Part shown: piece by piece, positions 9,986 through 61,600 of the stretch
Numbering within the stretch: position 1 is the stretch's first letter
Layout: every line of letters starts with the position of its first letter
Origin: Octopus vulgaris
Lineage: Eukaryota
Length of the DNA stretch: 64,000 nucleotides
Assembly: GCA_951406725.2 (NCBI GenBank)
Contig: OX597839.1
Span: 20,088,001-20,152,000, forward strand
Direction: 5' to 3'
The notes under the pieces: generated by a model
Databases searched by the model: none
What the model saw: only the letters and a program-made list of their open reading frames with translations
Told to the model about the DNA's origin: nothing
Translations under genes and position numbers: made by a program

Positions 9986-10019
9986 ACAAATATATATGGT
10001 GTGGTTGTGTGGTAAGAAG

Positions 10020-10826
10020 CTGGCAGAAACGTTAGGACGCCGGGCGAAATGCTTAGCGATATTTCGTCTGTCTTTACGTTCTGAGTTCAAATTCCACCGA
10101 AGTCGACTTTGCCTTTCATCCTTTCGGGGTCGATTAAATAAATACCTATTTCTTTACTACCCACAAGGGGCTAAACACAGAGGGGGCAAACAAGGATACA
10201 CAAACGGATTAAGTCGATTATATCGACCCCAGTGCATGACTGGTACTTATTTAATCGACCCCGAAAGGATGAAAGGCAAAGTCGACCTCGGCGGACGAAA
10301 TACTGCTAAGCATTTCACCCGGCGTGCTAACGAGTCTGGCAGTTCGCCGCCTTTATATTAAATTAAGTACCAGTTATGCACTGGGGTCGATATAATCGAC
10401 TTAATACGTTTGTCTGTCCTTGTTTGTCTCCTCTGTGTTTAGCCCCCTGTGGGTAGTAAAGAAATAGGTATTTGGTATGCCGCTACGTTTTGAGTTCAAA
10501 TTCCGCCGAGGTCGACTTTGCCTTTCATCCCTTCGGGGTCGATTAAATAAGTACCAGTTACGCACTGGGGTCGATGTAATCGACTAAATTCGTTTGTTTG
10601 TCCCCTCTATGTTTAGCCCCTTGTGGGTAGTAAAGAAATAGGTATTTCGTCTGCCGCTACGTTCTGAGTTCAAATTCCGCCGAGGTCGACTTTGCCTTTC
10701 ATCCTTTCGGGGTCGATAAATTAAGTACCAGTAACGCACTGGGGTCGATGTAATCGACATAACCCCTTTGTCTGTCCTTGCTTGTCCGCTCTATGTTTAA
10801 CCCCTTGTGGGCAATAAAGAAATAAG
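10020..10826. mobile_element. SINE family C cluster: plus-strand copy interrupted by a minus-strand copy (10145-10353), followed by headless tandem units
   Basis: Central GTCGACTTTGCCTTTCATCCTTTCGGGGTCGATAAATTAAGTACC domain (Meta-domain-like, from memory). Imperfect TSD at 10133-10146/10357-10371. Confidence 0.85.
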
Positions 10827-18803: not shown

Positions 18804-19537
18804 CCTATTTCTTTACTACCCACAAGGGGCTAAACAAAGAGAGGATAAACAAGGACAGGCAAACGGATTAAATCGATTATATCGACCCCAATGAGTAACT
18901 GGTACTTAATTAATAAACCCGAAAGGATGAAAAGCAAAGTCGACCTCAGCGGAATTTGAACTCAGAACGTAGCGGCAGACGAAATACCTATTTCTTTACT
19001 ACCCACAAGGGGCTAAACACAGAGAGGACAAACAAGGACAGACAAACGGATTAAATCGATTATATCGACCCCAATGAGTAACTGGTACTTAATTAATAAA
19101 CCCGAAAGGATGAAAAGCAAAGTCGACCTCAGCGGAATTTGAACTCAGAACGTAGCGGCAGACGAAATACCTATTTCTTTACTACCCACAAGGGGCTAAA
19201 CACAGAGAGGACAAACAAGGACAGACAAACGGATTAAATCGATTATATCGACCCCAATGAGTAACTGGTACTTAATTAATAAACCCGAAAGGATGAAAAG
19301 CAAAGTCGACCTCAGCGGAATTTGAACTCAGAACGTAGCGGCAGACGAGATACCTATTTCTTTACTACCCACAAGGGGCTAAACACAGAGAGGACAAACA
19401 ATGACAGACAAACGGATTAAATCGATTATATCGACCCCATTGCGTAACTAGTACTTAATTTAATCGACCCCGAAAGGATGAAAGGCAAAGTCGACCTCGG
19501 CGGAATTTGAACTCAGAACGTGGCGGCAGACGAAATT
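18804..19537 (-). repeat. four head-to-tail 183-bp units of SINE family C
   Basis: Unit starts at 18804, 18987, 19170 and 19353, with junction GACGAAATA-CCTATTTC. Confidence 0.95.
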
Positions 19538-19705
19538 TATCTGGCATGATACCGATTGTGCTAGCTTGCTGCTACTATAGAGCCCAAGGTCTGAAAATTT
19601 TGGGAGAGTGGGTAAGTAGATTATATTGACCCCAGTAACGCAGCTGGTACTTATTTCATCAACCTACGCGAACAAGAAAGGCGGAATTGGAATTCAGAAC
19701 GTAAA

Positions 19706-19933
19706 CCTATTTCTTTACTACCCACAAGGGGCTAAACACAGTGAGGACAAACAAGGATAGACAAACGGATTAAGTCGATTATATCGACCCCAGTGCGTAA
19801 CTGGTACTTAATTTATAGACCCCCGAAAGGATGAAAGGAAAAGTCGACATCGGCGGGATTTGAACTCAGAACGTAACGGCAGACGAAATACTGCTAAGCA
19901 TATCGCCCGGCGTGCTAACGTTTCTGCCAGCTC
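19706..19933 (-). mobile_element. SINE family C nested in an older family-C copy
   Basis: 15-bp TSD TTCAGAACGTAAACC at 19693-19707 and 19942-19956. Confidence 0.9.
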
Positions 19934-20550
19934 TATCTATCTTCAGAACGTAAACCGCCAGCGGGAAAACCGCTACACATCCTATCCGGCCTTCTAACGA
20001 CTCTGCTAACTTGTTACACTAATAATTAGCGGAGGAATGAAAACAAATAAAAGCACAGATATCAACTAAATTCAAACAAAAGCTGTCCGTTTACATTAAT
20101 GAGCAATTACGTGGGGAAATAATTACAACACGAATCGATACAATACCAAATTAATTGATCACATATTTGATCGATCGATCAATTTGCTAAGCGTATAGAT
20201 CGAGAATTCCAAATTTTCGGACATTGAATCTCATAGAATGCTGAAGTTGCCATTCCACAACAGATGGCAGTAACAGAGATCGATGGCAACAAGAATTTAC
20301 AATCAGAATGACTTTTTTTTTCTAGACAAATATCGACAGGCTCAGAAAAAATGGTGAAAAATTAAGATGTAATTTTGTGAAGACGACAGTGAGTTATCTA
20401 TTTGCGAGCCACCAGCTGCGACTTAACGATAGACAATCTAATACCTGTGGGAAATGTAGACGCGAGATACTAACGAATAAACCAAGTGCTCTTAGACATA
20501 AACTGCGAGCGGTAAATTAAAAAAAAAGCTTTCTCATCGTAAGAAAATTC

Positions 20551-32791: not shown

Positions 32792-33349
32792 AGAGAGTAT
32801 TAGTGCGTAGGATTAGTCTGGACGTGCGTATGTATGGGGTTGGTGTATGTATTAGTATGTATTAGTATGTATTAGTACGTATTGGTATGTATAAGTGTGT
32901 GTGTGTGTGTATGAGAGAGTATAAGTGCGTATGCGGGGTCTGGACGTGTGTATGTATAGGGTTGGTGTATGTATTAGTATGTACTAGTATGTATTAGTAC
33001 GTATTAGTATGTATTAGTTGGTGTGTGTATTAGTATGGCACATCATATGTGATGTGATGTGTAAAGTCATGTGGTGTAGTGAGGAGAAGAGGGGGAGGGG
33101 GAGAAGAGGGGGGAGAGAAGGGGAGGGGAAGAAGGGGAGGGGAAGAAGAGGGGGAGGAGAGGGGAGGAGGGGGATGAAGGAGGAAAGAGGGAGAGGGGGA
33201 GAGAGAAGGGGAGAGAGGGAGTGAGGGAGCAGAGGGAAGGGGAAGAGGGAGGGAGAAAGAGGGAAGAAGGGAAGGGGAGTAGGGGTGAAAGGATGAAGGA
33301 CTGAAGAAGTAGGGGTCGGGGGGAAAGGATAGGTGAGGAGGGGGTGAGG

Positions 33350-34942
33350 TTAGATGAGGAGGGGGGAGAGTTGAGACCAAATGGCGTATAAGAGCGAAGA
33401 GAGAAGATTAATTCCTGTTCACGGCGCAAACGGGAATCCGGATGGCCTCTGTGTAAGGACAAACCGAACACAGATAGGTGTTGCAAGGAGTGACCGGTGG
33501 AGCGGAAATGGCGTGAGACCGGTGTGTCGTTCGCAAGGTGGATGTCACGAAGGTGTTCCGCGAACCGGTCAGCCAAGCGGCGTCCCGTTTGTCCGATGTA
33601 CAAGGAATTGCAGAGAGAGCAAGAGATGCAATATATAATATTGCTGGAGGTGCAGGTGAAGGAGTGGATGATGGGATAGGGTCGATGGTGGGTGCTAGTG
33701 AGGCGGGTGGTGTTGGAGAGGTAAGGGCAAGTGCGGCAACGTGGGCGGGAGCAGGGGAACGAGCCGGGTTGGGAGGTAGGGTCAGGGAAGGAGCTATGGA
33801 CCAAAAGGTCTCGAAGGTTGTGGGGTCGTTTGAAAGAGGGGAGGGGTCGGTTAGGGAAGAGGTGTGAAGTGGACGGGTCGGACTGGAGATGACGGAAAGC
33901 TCGAAGAATGGTGCGTTGGAGACGTAGGGTCGTGGGGTGGTAAGTGAGGGGAAAAGGGAGGCGGGAGACTACAGGGCGGGTTCGGGGAGAGAGAGCAGAT
34001 ACACGGTCCACGGACCGTGCTCTGGCAAGGGCGGTGTGGATAGTGGTGAGGGGGTATCCACGTAGGGTGAAGTGGTGAGCCATACGTTGAGACTGAGTCT
34101 CAAAGTCATGGTCGTCACTACAGAGCCTACGTAGACGGAGGAATTGGGAATAGGGGATGGAAAGCTTGGTGTGTTCTGGGTGGGAGGAAGAGAAGTTGAG
34201 GTATGAGTGTGAGCCTGTGTGTTTGTAGTGAATGGAGGTGGTAAGAGTGGAGTGAAGAATGCTAACCGAAATGTCGAGGAAGGAGACAGAGGTGTTGGAG
34301 ATAGTGGAAGTGAAGTGGAGGGCTGGATGGAAAGATTGGACGAAAGAGAGGAAGGAATCTAGATGTTCGCGGGAGAGTGAGGTGGCACCGATAATGTCGT
34401 CAATGTAACGACCATATAGTTCAGGAGTGGGACCAGTGAAATTAGAGAATATTTGGGCCTCAACATAGCCAACGAACAGGTTCGCATAGTTGGGGCCCAT
34501 TCGCGTTCCCATGGCCACTCCCGAGATCTGATGGTAGAACTCGCCCGCGAACGAGAAGCAGTTCAGAGTAAGGACAAGTTCGGCCAGACGAATGAGTGTG
34601 GAGGTGTCAGGTACAGGGTTAGAGCGGAGGTCAAGAAAGTGTCGAAGGGCCTGCAGTCCTTCGTGGTGAGGGATAACAGTATAGAGGCTTTGGATGTCCA
34701 TAGTAAAAAGGATTTTGGAGGAGCCGGGAGGAAAGGAGAAAGAGTTGAAAAGCCGGAGAGCATGGTTGGTATCGTGGATGTGGGAGGGAAGAGATGCCAC
34801 TAGGGGGCAAGGACACGGTCGAGGTATTTAGAGATGAGCTCCGTGGGGCAGTTACAGGCGGAGACGATGGGGCGACCAGGGTTGTTGGGTTTGTGGATTT
34901 TGGGGAGGAAGTAAATGGTGGGGGTACGTGGGGTTCGCACAA
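33350..34942 (-). pseudogene. Penelope-like reverse transcriptase / GIY-YIG endonuclease (partial, frameshifted)
   Basis: [14 protein letters not shown] (34803-34942) continues in another frame into MDIQSLYT, GVAMGTRMGP, RYIDD, FLDI, the Cys linker CSRPRCRTC, NIIY..YIGQT and RREQELI..PFGLN. Confidence 0.93.
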
Positions 34943-36840: not shown

Positions 36841-36856
36841 TATAGAAACACATTAA

Positions 36857-37900
36857 GGAGGTGAGCGAGAAGAATAGCAGCTAGCATCCCTGGCACAATA
36901 CTTAGCGGCTTTTTTGTCCGTTTTCAAGTTCTGATTTCGAATTCCGCCGAGGTCGACTTTGATTTAATCCTTTTGGGGTCGATGAAATAAGTACCTATTT
37001 CTTTACTACCCACAAGAGGCTAAACAGAGGGGACAAACAAGGACAGACAAGCTGATTAAGTCGATTACATCGACCCCAGTGCTTAACTGGTACTTAATTT
37101 ATCGACCCCGAAAGGAGGAAACGCAAAGTCGACCTCGGCAGAATTTGAACTCAGAACGTAACGGCAGACGAAATACGGCTACGCATATTGCCCGGCGTGC
37201 TAACGATTCTGCCAGCTCACCGCCCTGATGAAATAAGTACCAGTTGAACACTGGGGTCGATGTAATCGACTTGAGCCCCTCCCCCAAAATTTCAGGTCAT
37301 GCGCCTGTAGTAGAAAGGGTTATTTTTATTATTGTTGATAAAATTCGAAGCCCCTGTGTCCGAGGTCGATTTTGACTTTCATCCTTTCATCCAGTCAAGT
37401 ACTGGGCTCGATATGGTCGACCGTCTCCCTTCCCTCAAATTCTAGGTCTGGTGCCTACAGCAGAAAGGATTATCAAGGTAGCGAGCAGGCAAAATGTTTA
37501 GCATGTCGCACAAAATGCTGAGAGGCGTTTCGTCCATCTTTGCGTTCTGAGTTCAAATTCCACCGAGGTCGACTTTGCCGTTCATTCTTTCGAGGTCGAT
37601 AAATTAAGTACCAGTCAAGAACAAGGGTCGATTTGGTCGATCATCCCCCCTCCCCTCAAATTCGTGACCATGCGCCAATTGTGGAAATAATTATCAAGGT
37701 GGCGTGCTAGCAAAATGTCTGGCACGCCGGACAAAATTCTTAGCGGCATTTCGTCTGTCTTTACATTCTGGGTTCAAATTCCCCCGGGGTCGACTTCAAC
37801 TCTCGTCCTTTCGAGAGTAGATGTAATCGACTATACCCTACCCCAAATTGGAGCCTATAGTAGAAAGGATTACTATCAAAGGAGCGAGCTAGCAGAATCA
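36857..37900. mobile_element. SINE family C cluster with nested antisense copy (36995-37226)
   Basis: TSD GATGAAATAAGTACC at 36981-36995 and 37227-37241, followed by several degenerate plus-strand copies. Confidence 0.88.
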
Positions 37901-49150: not shown

Positions 49151-49599
49151 TATCATCACCATCATCATTATCACCATCTTCCTCATCCTCATCATCCTCA
49201 TCATCATCATCATCCACCACCACCACCACCATCACTAAAGTATTTCTTCATCACTATACCGTTCTCGGAACGATCATCACGTCATCAATACCGACTCCCC
49301 ACCACCATTACCAACTCTACCACCACTGTCACCACCACTACTACAACAAACACCATCACCATTACCACCACTACCACCACTACCACCACCACTGCTATCA
49401 TTAAAACCCTTACAACCACTATCACCACCGCTACTACTAACAGTAACATCACAACTACGGTCGCCACCATTCCGACTACTAGCACCATCACCCCCACTAC
49501 AACCACCACTACAACCACCACCAACACTACTACCACCACTACCACCACCTACCACCACTACCACCACAGTTACCACCACCACAAACTTCACCACCACAA

Positions 49600-50412
49600 T
49601 GGATTAAGTCGATTACATCGACCCCAGTTCATAACTGGTTCTTAATTTATCGACCCCGAAAGGATGAAAGGCAAAGTCAACCTCGGCGAAATTTGAACTC
49701 AGAACGTAACGGCAGACGAAATACCTATTTCTTTACTACCCACAAGGGGCTAAACACAGAGGGGACAAACAAGGACAGGCACGCGGATTAAGTCGATTTA
49801 CATCGATCCCAGTGCGTAACTGGTACTTATTTAATCAACCCCGAAAGGATGAAAGGCAAAGTCGATCTCGGAGGAATTTGAACTCAGAACGTAGCGGCAG
49901 ACGAAATACCGCTAAGAATTTCGCCTGGCGTGCTAACGATTCTGCCAGCTTGCCTCCTTAAGATCACCAAATATTGCCTTCAAATTTTGACCCAAGTCCA
50001 TTAATTTCAACATAGGGATTAAGTCGATTACATTGACCCCAGTGTTCAACTGGTACTTATTATAAGGCGGTGAGCTGGCAGAAACGTTAGCACGCCGGGC
50101 GAAATGCTTAGCGTTACGTTGTGAGTTCAAATTCCGCCGAGGTCGACTTTGCCTTTCATCCTTTCAGGGTCGATAAATTAAGTACCAGTTACGCACTGGG
50201 GTCAATGTAATCGACTTAATACCTATGTCTGTCCTTGTTTGTCCCCTCTGTGTTTAGCCCCTTGTGGGTAATAAAGAAATAGGTACTTATTATATCGACC
50301 CCGAAAGGACGAAAGGCAAAGTCGACCTCGGGGGGAATTGACCTCAGAGCGCAAAGACGGACGAAATTCCGTTAAGTATTTTTCTCGGCTTACAAACTAT
50401 TCTGCCAGCTCG
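49600..50412. mobile_element. SINE family C cluster: minus-strand dimer plus a plus-strand copy (50064-50284) nested in a minus-strand copy
   Basis: TSD GGTACTTATTAT at 50052-50063 and 50282-50293. Confidence 0.9.
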
Positions 50413-50852
50413 CTGTCAAATCTCCATCGAATATTAACGGCCGTACAAAGCCATCTGATTACACCGGACAGTGGACAGTGGACATTGGATAGCGATATTG
50501 GCTATAACAATGGAATAGGTATTGGTCAACATATACAGAGAATCGGAGAGAGAAAAAGAGAGACAGAAAAGCGGGGAGATGGAGGTGTGTGATCGGAGAT
50601 GGACAATCGGACAATCGGACAAACAGACAAACGGTCAAGCAGCCAACAAACCAAACTAATAATAAAGTTAGAATCACTTATAAAAGTTACTGGTGCTATA
50701 TTGGTAAATTCAGTGTGGCAGATATAATAATAATGTCCGAAGTTTGGGAGGTATTGGAGAAAAATTCTGGCCGGAATTTTGTGGAATCAACGCATATTCG
50801 TGTGTATTTATGAGTGAATGGAAAGACGTCATAAATGGTTTAAGCATACATT

Positions 50853-60782: not shown

Positions 60783-60958
60783 TATATATATATATATTTA
60801 TATATATATATATTTATATATATATTTATATATATATATATATATATATGCTTGAAAATGGATGCGTAGCGTTCAATCACATGATAATGTATAGCATTTT
60901 TCCGATGGCCGGATAACTGAAGAGATGGCGGCGTGGATGTCCACCCCGACATCCGAAA

Positions 60959-61600
60959 TAATCGACTTAATACCTATGTCTGTCCTTGTTTGTCCTCTCT
61001 GTGTTTAGCCTCTTGTGGGTAGTAAAGAAATAGGTATTTCGTCTGCCGCTACGTTCTGAGTTCAAATTCTGCCGAGTTCGACTTTGCCTTTCATCCTTTC
61101 AGGGTCGATAAATTAAGTACCAGTTACGCACTGGGGTCGATGTAATCGACTTAATCCGTTTGTCTGTCCTTGTTTGTCCTCTCTGTGGGTAGTAAAGAAA
61201 TAGGTATTTCGTTTGCCGTTACGTTCTGAGTTCAAATTCCGCCGAGGTCGGCTTTGCCTTTCATCCTTTCGGGGTCGATAAATTAAGTACCAATTGCTTG
61301 CATACTAGGGTCGATCTAATCGATTGGTCCCATCCCCCAAAATTTCGGGGTTTGTGCTTAGAGTAGAAAATAATATTAAAACACTTCAAAGTTGTAAATT
61401 GGCAGACTCGTTAGCACGCTGGACAAAGTGCTTCGAAGCATTTCGTCCGTCTTTACACTCAAGTTCAAATTCCGCTGATGCTGACTTTAACTTTTATCTC
61501 TTCAGGGTCGGTAAAAAGAAGTACCCGATGAAAATCAGGGTTGATATAATCAACTTAAACCCTCCTGCTAATTTGCTGACCTTGTGACAAATTTCGGAAA
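60959..61600 (+). mobile_element. SINE family C headless tandem units plus degenerate copy
   Basis: Junction AAGAAATAGGTATTTCGT at about 61030 and 61200. Confidence 0.88.

What the first reader, a model, noticed from the sequence alone, without database searches (positions are those of the whole stretch)
36981..37241. SINE family C repeatedly inserts antisense into itself at the same internal site
Seen: three separate nested insertions, each antisense to the host copy and each with its 3' junction at the host's central AAGTACC site. TSDs are GATGAAATAAGTACC (36981/37227), GGTACTTATTAT (50052/50282) and an imperfect ATTAAAT(T)AARTACC (10133/10357). A fourth, in sense orientation, has TSD TTCAGAACGTAAACC (19693/19942). 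In every case the target supplies GGT, matching the SINE 3' end ..AAGAAATAGG(T). TSD lengths differ, which favours independent events over copying of one composite. Inference: sequence-specific or microhomology-primed integration that makes the family its own landing pad.
Basis: partly seen in the sequence, partly recalled or inferred. Interest (0 to 1): 0.72.

Follow-up and report, generated by a model that had tools for sequence, protein, structure and literature searches.

The report
SINE's secondary antisense self-insertion hotspot
A very abundant short mobile element has landed backwards, many separate times, at one exact base inside older copies of itself and its sister families, likely because that spot nearly matches the sequence that its borrowed LINE enzyme aims at, so it is a real but minor side-effect of a larger self-targeting system.

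Summary
The four nested insertions are real, but three of the four hosts are older sister SINEs, not family C. Genome-wide, 947 SINE 3' ends sit at this exact antisense base, about 1% of 106,996 ends. They are independent events: target duplications, truncations, hosts and insert sequences all vary. Per available site the rate is about 0.4%. That is some 350 times random, but no higher than GGTAT sites outside SINEs. GGT alone is not enough: 14 junctions at GGTCGA. The main landing pad is on the sense strand, head position 48 (GGTATTTCG), with 31,838 junctions. A LINE with an L1-type endonuclease and reverse transcriptase and a related 3' tail sits at that same base in 82 of 93 copies. The antisense GGTACTT is a 6-of-7 match to that target. 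Pairing of read-through RNA with the nick likely contributes: 17% of these junctions read GGTAT, against 3.6% of empty sites. This scan already reported the LINE-SINE self-targeting system on other DNA of this genome. The closest published cases are the Alu-in-Alu hotspot and Tx1-Mar/SINEU.

The parts
36856..36980 (+). Host SINE, 5' part (head and start of central domain); older sister family with D1-type tail
   Evidence: 81% to family C core
36981..36995 (+). Target-site duplication, copy at the insert's 3' end (reads GGTACTTATTTCATC on the minus strand)
36996..37226 (-). Inserted full-length family C SINE, antisense to host; ends AAGAAATA
   Evidence: 94% to consensus over positions 1-231
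37227..37241 (+). Target-site duplication, copy at the insert's 5' end
37242..37330 (+). Host SINE, 3' part with sister-family tail
50052..50294 (+). Second case: 13-nt duplication (50052, 50282) around a family C insert (50065-50281, plus strand)
49965..50415 (-). Host of the second case (approximate limits): sister SINE with D2-like tail, split by the insert
   Evidence: 83% to C core
10133..10371 (-). Third case: family C insert (10147-10356) with imperfect duplication; the 3' junction reads GGTATTT where the 5' copy reads GGTACTT
10016..10824 (+). Host of the third case: family C copy followed by two units joined in sense (the last from position 48)
19693..19956 (-). Fourth case: family C insert (19708-19941) in sense orientation in an old sister SINE, at a different site that begins GGTTTAC
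   Evidence: host 76% to C core
18806..19536 (-). Four 184-nt units joined at position 48 (GGTATTTCG), the dominant sense self-junction
49598..49950 (-). Full copy joined in sense to position 48 of a further unit
60954..61369 (+). Chain of units joined at position 48, ending in a sister-family unit

Best explanation
The antisense nesting is a real, recurrent, independent insertion class that is likely an off-target by-product of a LINE enzyme whose preferred target lies in the SINE's own head. Shown: a 5.35-kb LINE with L1-type endonuclease and reverse transcriptase sits at SINE position 48 (GGTATTTCG, sense) with a duplication of positions 48-63, and shares a 3' tail with family C. Shown: family C ends join the same position in about 30% of exact-match cases and otherwise prefer GGTAT, then GGTACT, then GGTAC. 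Inferred: the SINE borrows this LINE (or a close sister) through the tail. Inferred: the enzyme nicks before GGTA, and the RNA, read through from a source copy that sits at position 48, carries GGUAUUU past its end and pairs with the nicked DNA to start copying. The host's antisense GGTACTT is the only GGT on that strand and would pair at all seven bases with one G-U wobble. With more than 216,000 such sites in the genome, about 950 were hit.
For: Counts after the tail GGGTARTAAAGAAATA (106,996): GGTATTTCGT 31,838, GGTATV 7,435, GGTAC 3,148, GGTACV 892, GGTCGA 14. Strict antisense junction 947 with the 10-nt tail over 216,563 host sites. Estimated per-site use, with sites scaled from 864 kb: GGTATTTD about 0.9%, antisense host site 0.35-0.44%, GGTATV 0.33%, GGTACV 0.06%, GGTCGA about 0.001%. 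LINE: 82 of 93 tails at position 48, none at GGTACTT (counted by eye); 34 of 44; domains Exo_endo_phos, RVT_1, zf-RVT, zf-CCHC; best solved relative LINE-1 ORF2p, E 2.5e-32; three full-length copies between SINE 1-63 and SINE 48-end; tail 82-85% identical over SINE 197-230. RNA contribution: 17 of 100 antisense junctions read GGTAT against 7 of 195 empty sites, p 1.6e-4; in L256 and window 10147 the 5' copy keeps C while the 3' copy has T; the first junction base follows the element, C in 53 of 82 LINE junctions, including one in a sister-family host (L449) although 0 of 29 such heads have C there, and G in at least 149 of 162 SINE junctions although 26 of 124 family C heads have C; tail subfamilies differ in target, GG 72 of 140 vs 10 of 80, p 3e-9. 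Precedent: read-through target sequence anneals and fixes the start of reverse transcription for R2Ol (PMC6795142, passages).
Against: No LINE with a tail identical to family C was found in the 100 listed of 1,833 matches; the position-48 LINE ends AAATT, the SINE AAATA. About a quarter of terminal ends begin TA (32 of 140), which this target does not explain and may mean a second partner. The LINE itself was not seen at the antisense host site (0 of 93; one GGTACTT hit out of host context), though few would be expected. Of six GGTAT antisense loci fetched, only one showed C in the 5' copy, one had T in both copies and four had no readable 5' copy (35). The 20 vs 4 mismatch asymmetry is biased because classes were set on the 3' copy; among unselected loci it is about 6 vs 1, not significant. 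Subfamily differences could come from different partner enzymes. Site numbers for the rate ladder are extrapolated from a SINE-rich sample.
Confidence: 0.7

Rival explanations
1. Endonuclease only: the borrowed enzyme's cleavage preference (GGTAT over GGTAC) sets every site; the RNA ends at AAATA and does not pair with the target. Subfamily differences reflect different partner LINEs.
For: The LINE's off-target sites also begin GGTAT (8 of 10). Target choice of Tx1-type elements is ascribed mainly to the endonuclease (PMC4494074, passage). Several related LINE families with different targets exist here.
Against: Junction bases that follow the element instead of the host (L449; C vs G at the first base) and the C-to-T excess at antisense junctions (17 of 100 vs 7 of 195) need RNA sequence past the end.
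Confidence: 0.17
2. Dedicated antisense self-targeting, the first reader's strong form: some feature of the host central domain (its palindromes, chromatin or long RNA-DNA homology) draws insertions beyond the 7-nt motif.
For: Use is about six times that of other GGTAC sites and about 1.5 times that of other GGTACT sites by my estimate. Young hosts had less time to be hit, so the rate in old hosts is higher than the mean (16-18 of 37 hosts are sister-family).
Against: 26 of 30 insertions at GGTACTTA in hosts against 165 of 199 available (p 0.79); rate no higher than GGTATV outside SINEs and lower than GGTATTTD; only about 1% of ends.
Confidence: 0.1
3. One nested composite was amplified as a unit.
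For: Nearest neighbour of a nested insert is another nested insert in 16 of 36 cases against 27% expected, and two diagnostic variants are enriched, so some source lineages contribute more.
Against: Exact duplications of 8-17 nt in 20 of 30 loci (one 21-nt match to another copy left out), hosts of three families, full-length, truncated and multi-unit inserts, and divergence among inserts equal to that among random copies.
Confidence: 0.02

Closest known systems
Alu self-insertion hotspot (Levy et al., PMC2836564; passages read)
   Same: A SINE inserts into copies of itself at one prominent position, explained by the partner endonuclease's site plus pairing with the RNA 3' end; nested-insertion hotspots in either orientation are described as common.
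   Different: Alu uses poly(A) pairing at its linker, mainly in sense. Here the guide is a non-A sequence, the hot site is in the tRNA-like head, and the partner LINE itself targets that site.
Tx1-Mar LINEs with SINEU in crocodilians (Kojima 2015, PMC4494074; passages and section 16 read)
   Same: A target-preferring L1-group LINE and the SINE it carries share sites inside an abundant repeat; two preferred regions in opposite orientations; SINE families differ in strictness; tandem insertions occur.
   Different: The target there is a Mariner DNA transposon, and the two regions have no recognisable similarity. Here the target is the SINE family itself and the second site is a 6-of-7 match to the first.
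R2Ol with read-through 28S sequence (PMC6795142; passages read)
   Same: Target sequence carried at the RNA 3' end anneals to the nick and fixes the start of reverse transcription.
   Different: Shown by experiment for an autonomous restriction-like-endonuclease element at one rDNA site; here it is inferred from junctions for a SINE with a relaxed, graded preference.
TSD-(SINE)n-TSD arrays of the blood clam (PMC11481361; passages read)
   Same: One complete head followed by units truncated at the same head position inside one duplication.
   Different: Ascribed there to possible unequal recombination; in the passages seen no LINE targeting the junction and no antisense secondary site is described (0 occurrences of Tx1).

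Membership tests
tRNA-derived SINE | [quoted passage not shown] | tested here: met
   231-nt consensus from 91 copies with box-like motifs at 11-21 and 73-85; the box motifs are recalled, not from a call. ARAGORN finds no tRNA and Rfam gives no real match.
tRNA-derived SINE | Variable target-site duplications and 5' truncation | tested here: met
   Duplications mostly 9-18 nt; truncated inserts at 42, 83, 90, 105.
tRNA-derived SINE | 3' tail shared with a LINE | tested here: met
   82-85% over SINE 197-230 with the position-48 LINE; similar tails in other related LINE families.
tRNA-derived SINE | Transcription by Pol III | not tested
   No RNA data were examined.
Nin/Deu-domain SINE superfamily | Homology of the central domain to the Nin or Deu consensus | not testable with these tools
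   No reference domain sequence was available from a tool; the resemblance is recalled only.
Tx1 clade (partner LINE) | ORF1 with zinc knuckle and ORF2 with APE endonuclease and reverse transcriptase of L1 type | tested here: met
   Pfam zf-CCHC, Exo_endo_phos, RVT_1, zf-RVT; LINE-1 ORF2p best solved relative.
Tx1 clade (partner LINE) | Target specificity (over 20% of flanks in one repeat, criterion of PMC4494074) | tested here: met
   82 of 93 tails at SINE position 48.
Tx1 clade (partner LINE) | RT phylogeny groups with named Tx1 elements | not tested
   No named Tx1 reference was at hand; the label Tx1 is recalled and taken from earlier scan notes.
Target-specific SINE at the antisense site | Over 20% of copies at the site | tested here: not met
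   About 1% of ends; 5 of 220 terminal ends in the sample. The sense site does meet it, about 30%.

The most novel reading that the evidence does not exclude
The SINE carries a heritable, RNA-encoded address: a copy's read-through transcript includes the site it landed in, and those bases steer its daughters. Sitting at position 48 gives the guide GGUAUUU, which sends copies back to position 48 in sense and, by G-U wobble, to the antisense central site; the other subfamily carries AGAA and goes to position 15. Target choice would then evolve in the passenger RNA and not only in the enzyme.
Probability: 0.4. Interest if true: 0.68.

Novelty: new variant of a known kind. Interest (0 to 1): 0.4.

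Why it matters
The antisense site is a natural one-mismatch target present in over 200,000 copies, so it measures how far a site-preferring LINE enzyme and its passenger RNA tolerate mismatch. Junction bases that follow the element suggest that a SINE RNA's 3' extension helps choose the site, which bears on how target specificity evolves and on retargeting non-LTR enzymes. The roughly 950 nested events also give a relative chronology of the sister SINE families and produce built-in inverted repeats. Taken alone, the hotspot is of a kind already known from Alu.

Tried and rejected
GGT as the determinant: rejected, 14 junctions at GGTCGA. One amplified composite: rejected. A Dong/R4-like LINE (label recalled) as partner: its 3' ends lack the tail and end in TAA repeats in most of the 30 loci. 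A young related LINE next to the window as direct partner: tail similar, but it sits in TATC repeats in all 30 loci. Searches for a LINE by a variant tail gave almost only mutated SINEs, but one row (L391) was the position-48 LINE. A search for a LINE with the identical tail found none among 100 listed of 1,833. The zf-RVT family search gave places but no DNA. Folding one copy gave no unusual stability, z -1.0. ARAGORN and Rfam gave nothing useful. Classical nested structure at position 48 (host head, duplication, full insert) was seen in 0 of 40 chains; heads of C-on-sister chimeras are mostly C-type, which fits either seamless joining with head replacement or template jumping, and I did not separate these. 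Literature searches showed no paper on this SINE's targets; the library lacks most subscription journals, and no supplements were opened (Kojima's figures S3-S6 and the repeat library of PMC13282606 may bear on naming and novelty).

Full report
Observation. The inserts are 93-97% identical to a 231-nt consensus built from 91 full-length copies and 89-93% identical to each other. Three lie antisense to their host with the 3' junction at AAGTACC, consensus position 136. Only the host at 10133 is family C. The hosts at 36981, 50052 and 19693 are older sister SINEs with the same head and central domain (76-83% identity) and different tails. The window lies in a 2.8-Gb animal genome; the repeats resemble octopus repeats by recall, which I did not test.

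Genome-wide reality. The tail joined to GGTACTTA occurs 1,155 times, control 1. The stricter host junction occurs 947 times, control 0. The main tail occurs 106,996 times, so the class is about 1% of ends. Of the first 30 loci, 26 lie in a SINE host (24 by alignment score, 2 by host tail). Exact duplications of 8-17 nt were found in 20 of 30 (a 21-nt match to another copy left out). Inserts are full-length, 5'-truncated or chains of two to three units. Among 37 loci the hosts are C in 11, sister families in 16-18 and untyped in 8. Distance among nested inserts is 0.089, among other copies 0.090. These are independent insertions. The window itself is richer than average: 3 of 16 ends against 5 of 407 unselected ends overall.

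What the target is. The element ends at AAGAAATA. In 140 array-terminal ends of the main subfamily the next bases are GG in 72 and TA in 32; among the 72, positions 3-7 are T 66, A 57, T 43, T 37, T 31, and then flat. The 5' duplication copies show the same logo, so the motif is in the target (42 pairs). Genome counts after the tail: GGTATTTCGT 31,838, GGTATTTD 6,509 of which 13 of 30 fetched were terminal, GGTATV 7,435 (81), GGTAC 3,148 (38), GGTACV 892 (82), GGTCGA 14 (25). Each host has three sense GGTCGA sites and one antisense GGT site, so GGT is not sufficient. Dividing by available sites (216,563 host sites counted; others scaled from 864 kb) gives about 0.9% for GGTATTTD, 0.35-0.44% for the antisense host site, 0.33% for GGTATV, 0.06% for GGTACV and 0.001% for GGTCGA, against about 0.001% at random. 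The sample is SINE-rich, so these are rough. Inside GGTACTTA, hosts are not favoured: 26 of 30 hits against 165 of 199 available sites (p 0.79). The antisense hotspot is motif times abundance.

The main landing pad. About 30% of exact tails join position 48 of another unit in sense, giving 184-nt chains. Many chains end in a sister-family unit, and the downstream unit is on average more diverged (0.071 vs 0.056, 96 pairs, p 0.0005, part of whose output was cut). A second subfamily, with GGGCA in the tail, re-enters mostly at position 15 (17 of 24 joins) and its terminal ends prefer AG or AA (37 of 80 vs 10 of 140).

The partner. The tail resembles the 3' ends of several LINE families here, with a short predicted hairpin whose stem varies between families while staying paired. 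Prompted by earlier scan notes, I looked for a LINE at the SINE's own sites and found one in L391. Its tail sits at SINE position 48 in 34 of 44 and 82 of 93 listed matches of two overlapping patterns (counted by eye), and 8 of the 10 other sites begin GGTAT. Three of six copies fetched are full length, about 5.35 kb, between SINE 1-63 and SINE 48-end. They encode zf-CCHC, Exo_endo_phos, RVT_1 and zf-RVT domains, closest to LINE-1 ORF2p among solved structures. The label Tx1 is recalled and untested by tree. The tail match is 82-85% over 34 nt, not identity, and no LINE with the identical tail appeared in 100 listed of 1,833 matches, so the exact partner may be a sister family.

RNA contribution. 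At antisense junctions 17 of the first 100 read GGTAT, against 7 of 195 empty host sites (p 1.6e-4). In L256 and at window 10147 the 5' copy has C and the 3' copy T; in L268 both have T; four others could not be read. The first junction base at position 48 is C in 53 of 82 LINE junctions, including one in a sister-family host where C was seen in 0 of 29 heads, and G in at least 149 of 162 SINE junctions although 26 of 124 family C heads have C. These fit RNA that runs past the end into target sequence and pairs with the nick, as shown for R2Ol (PMC6795142, passages). GGUAUUU would pair with GGTACTT through one G-U wobble (inference from base-pairing rules). The unbiased mismatch asymmetry is only about 6 to 1, so this step is likely, not shown.

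Comparison and verdict. Self-insertion hotspots of SINEs are known for Alu (PMC2836564, passages). Shared target preference of a Tx1-type LINE and its SINE, with two sites in opposite orientation, is known from crocodilians (PMC4494074, passages and section 16). Head-plus-body arrays are known from a clam (PMC11481361, passages). I also saw passages of PMC4758252, PMC5804259 and PMC8967140 and part 1 of 3 of PMC13282606; none of what I saw describes this SINE's targets. Ten searches found no description of it. This scan has reported the LINE-in-SINE and sense self-insertion system many times on other DNA of this genome; one note mentions two fixed self-sites. New variant of a known kind; interest 0.4.

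Noticed in passing
L448, L449, L450 (5' ends of the LINE): All three full-length LINE copies begin with SINE positions 1-63 of the same C48 head variant, even where the downstream host has a sister-family tail (L449). The LINE appears to carry its own SINE head.
   Followed up: partly
L453:4045-4088 (+): A non-SINE element ends in a tail 89% identical to SINE 189-231, finishing AAATA and followed by TAGAG. It may be a closer or second partner and could bear on the TA-starting target class.
   Followed up: no
L081:2466-4445 (-), just right of the window; L335-L364: A young related LINE family with many long open frames (1159 aa) that sits in TATC repeats in all 30 loci fetched, often stacked with a sister family.
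   Followed up: partly
window 1647, 1860, 57990; L305-L334: Isolated LINE-type tails with the same hairpin loop followed by CAT/TAT repeats; one older family has 55 exact tail matches and ORF2 remnants upstream in several loci.
   Followed up: partly
tails of families C, D1, D2: A CTTGT loop is closed by stems that differ between families but stay paired (GCCC/GGGY, AGGC/GCCT, TGGC/GCCA), a candidate recognition hairpin.
   Followed up: partly
G000:C5:62485857, C6:55698121, C6:97601171, C7:44042412: The position-48 LINE recurs at one other sequence beginning GGTATTGCG, probably a second repeat used as an off-target site.
   Followed up: no
L061-L080 region, chain of five units: Three adjacent units share a private 22-nt deletion, so some chains also grow by local duplication; 18 of 96 adjacent pairs differ by under 4%, about 1 expected.
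   Followed up: partly
window about 33070-34827 (-): A 586-codon open frame that looks like a Penelope-type reverse transcriptase (recalled resemblance, not tested).
   Followed up: no
G000:C1:122650793-122651004: A 71-nt tandem made only of the SINE tail joined to the position-15 site.
   Followed up: no
L275-L304: An abundant LINE (69,939 first-look candidates; Dong/R4-like by recall) ending in TAA repeats, often with sister-family SINEs inserted in those repeats.
   Followed up: partly
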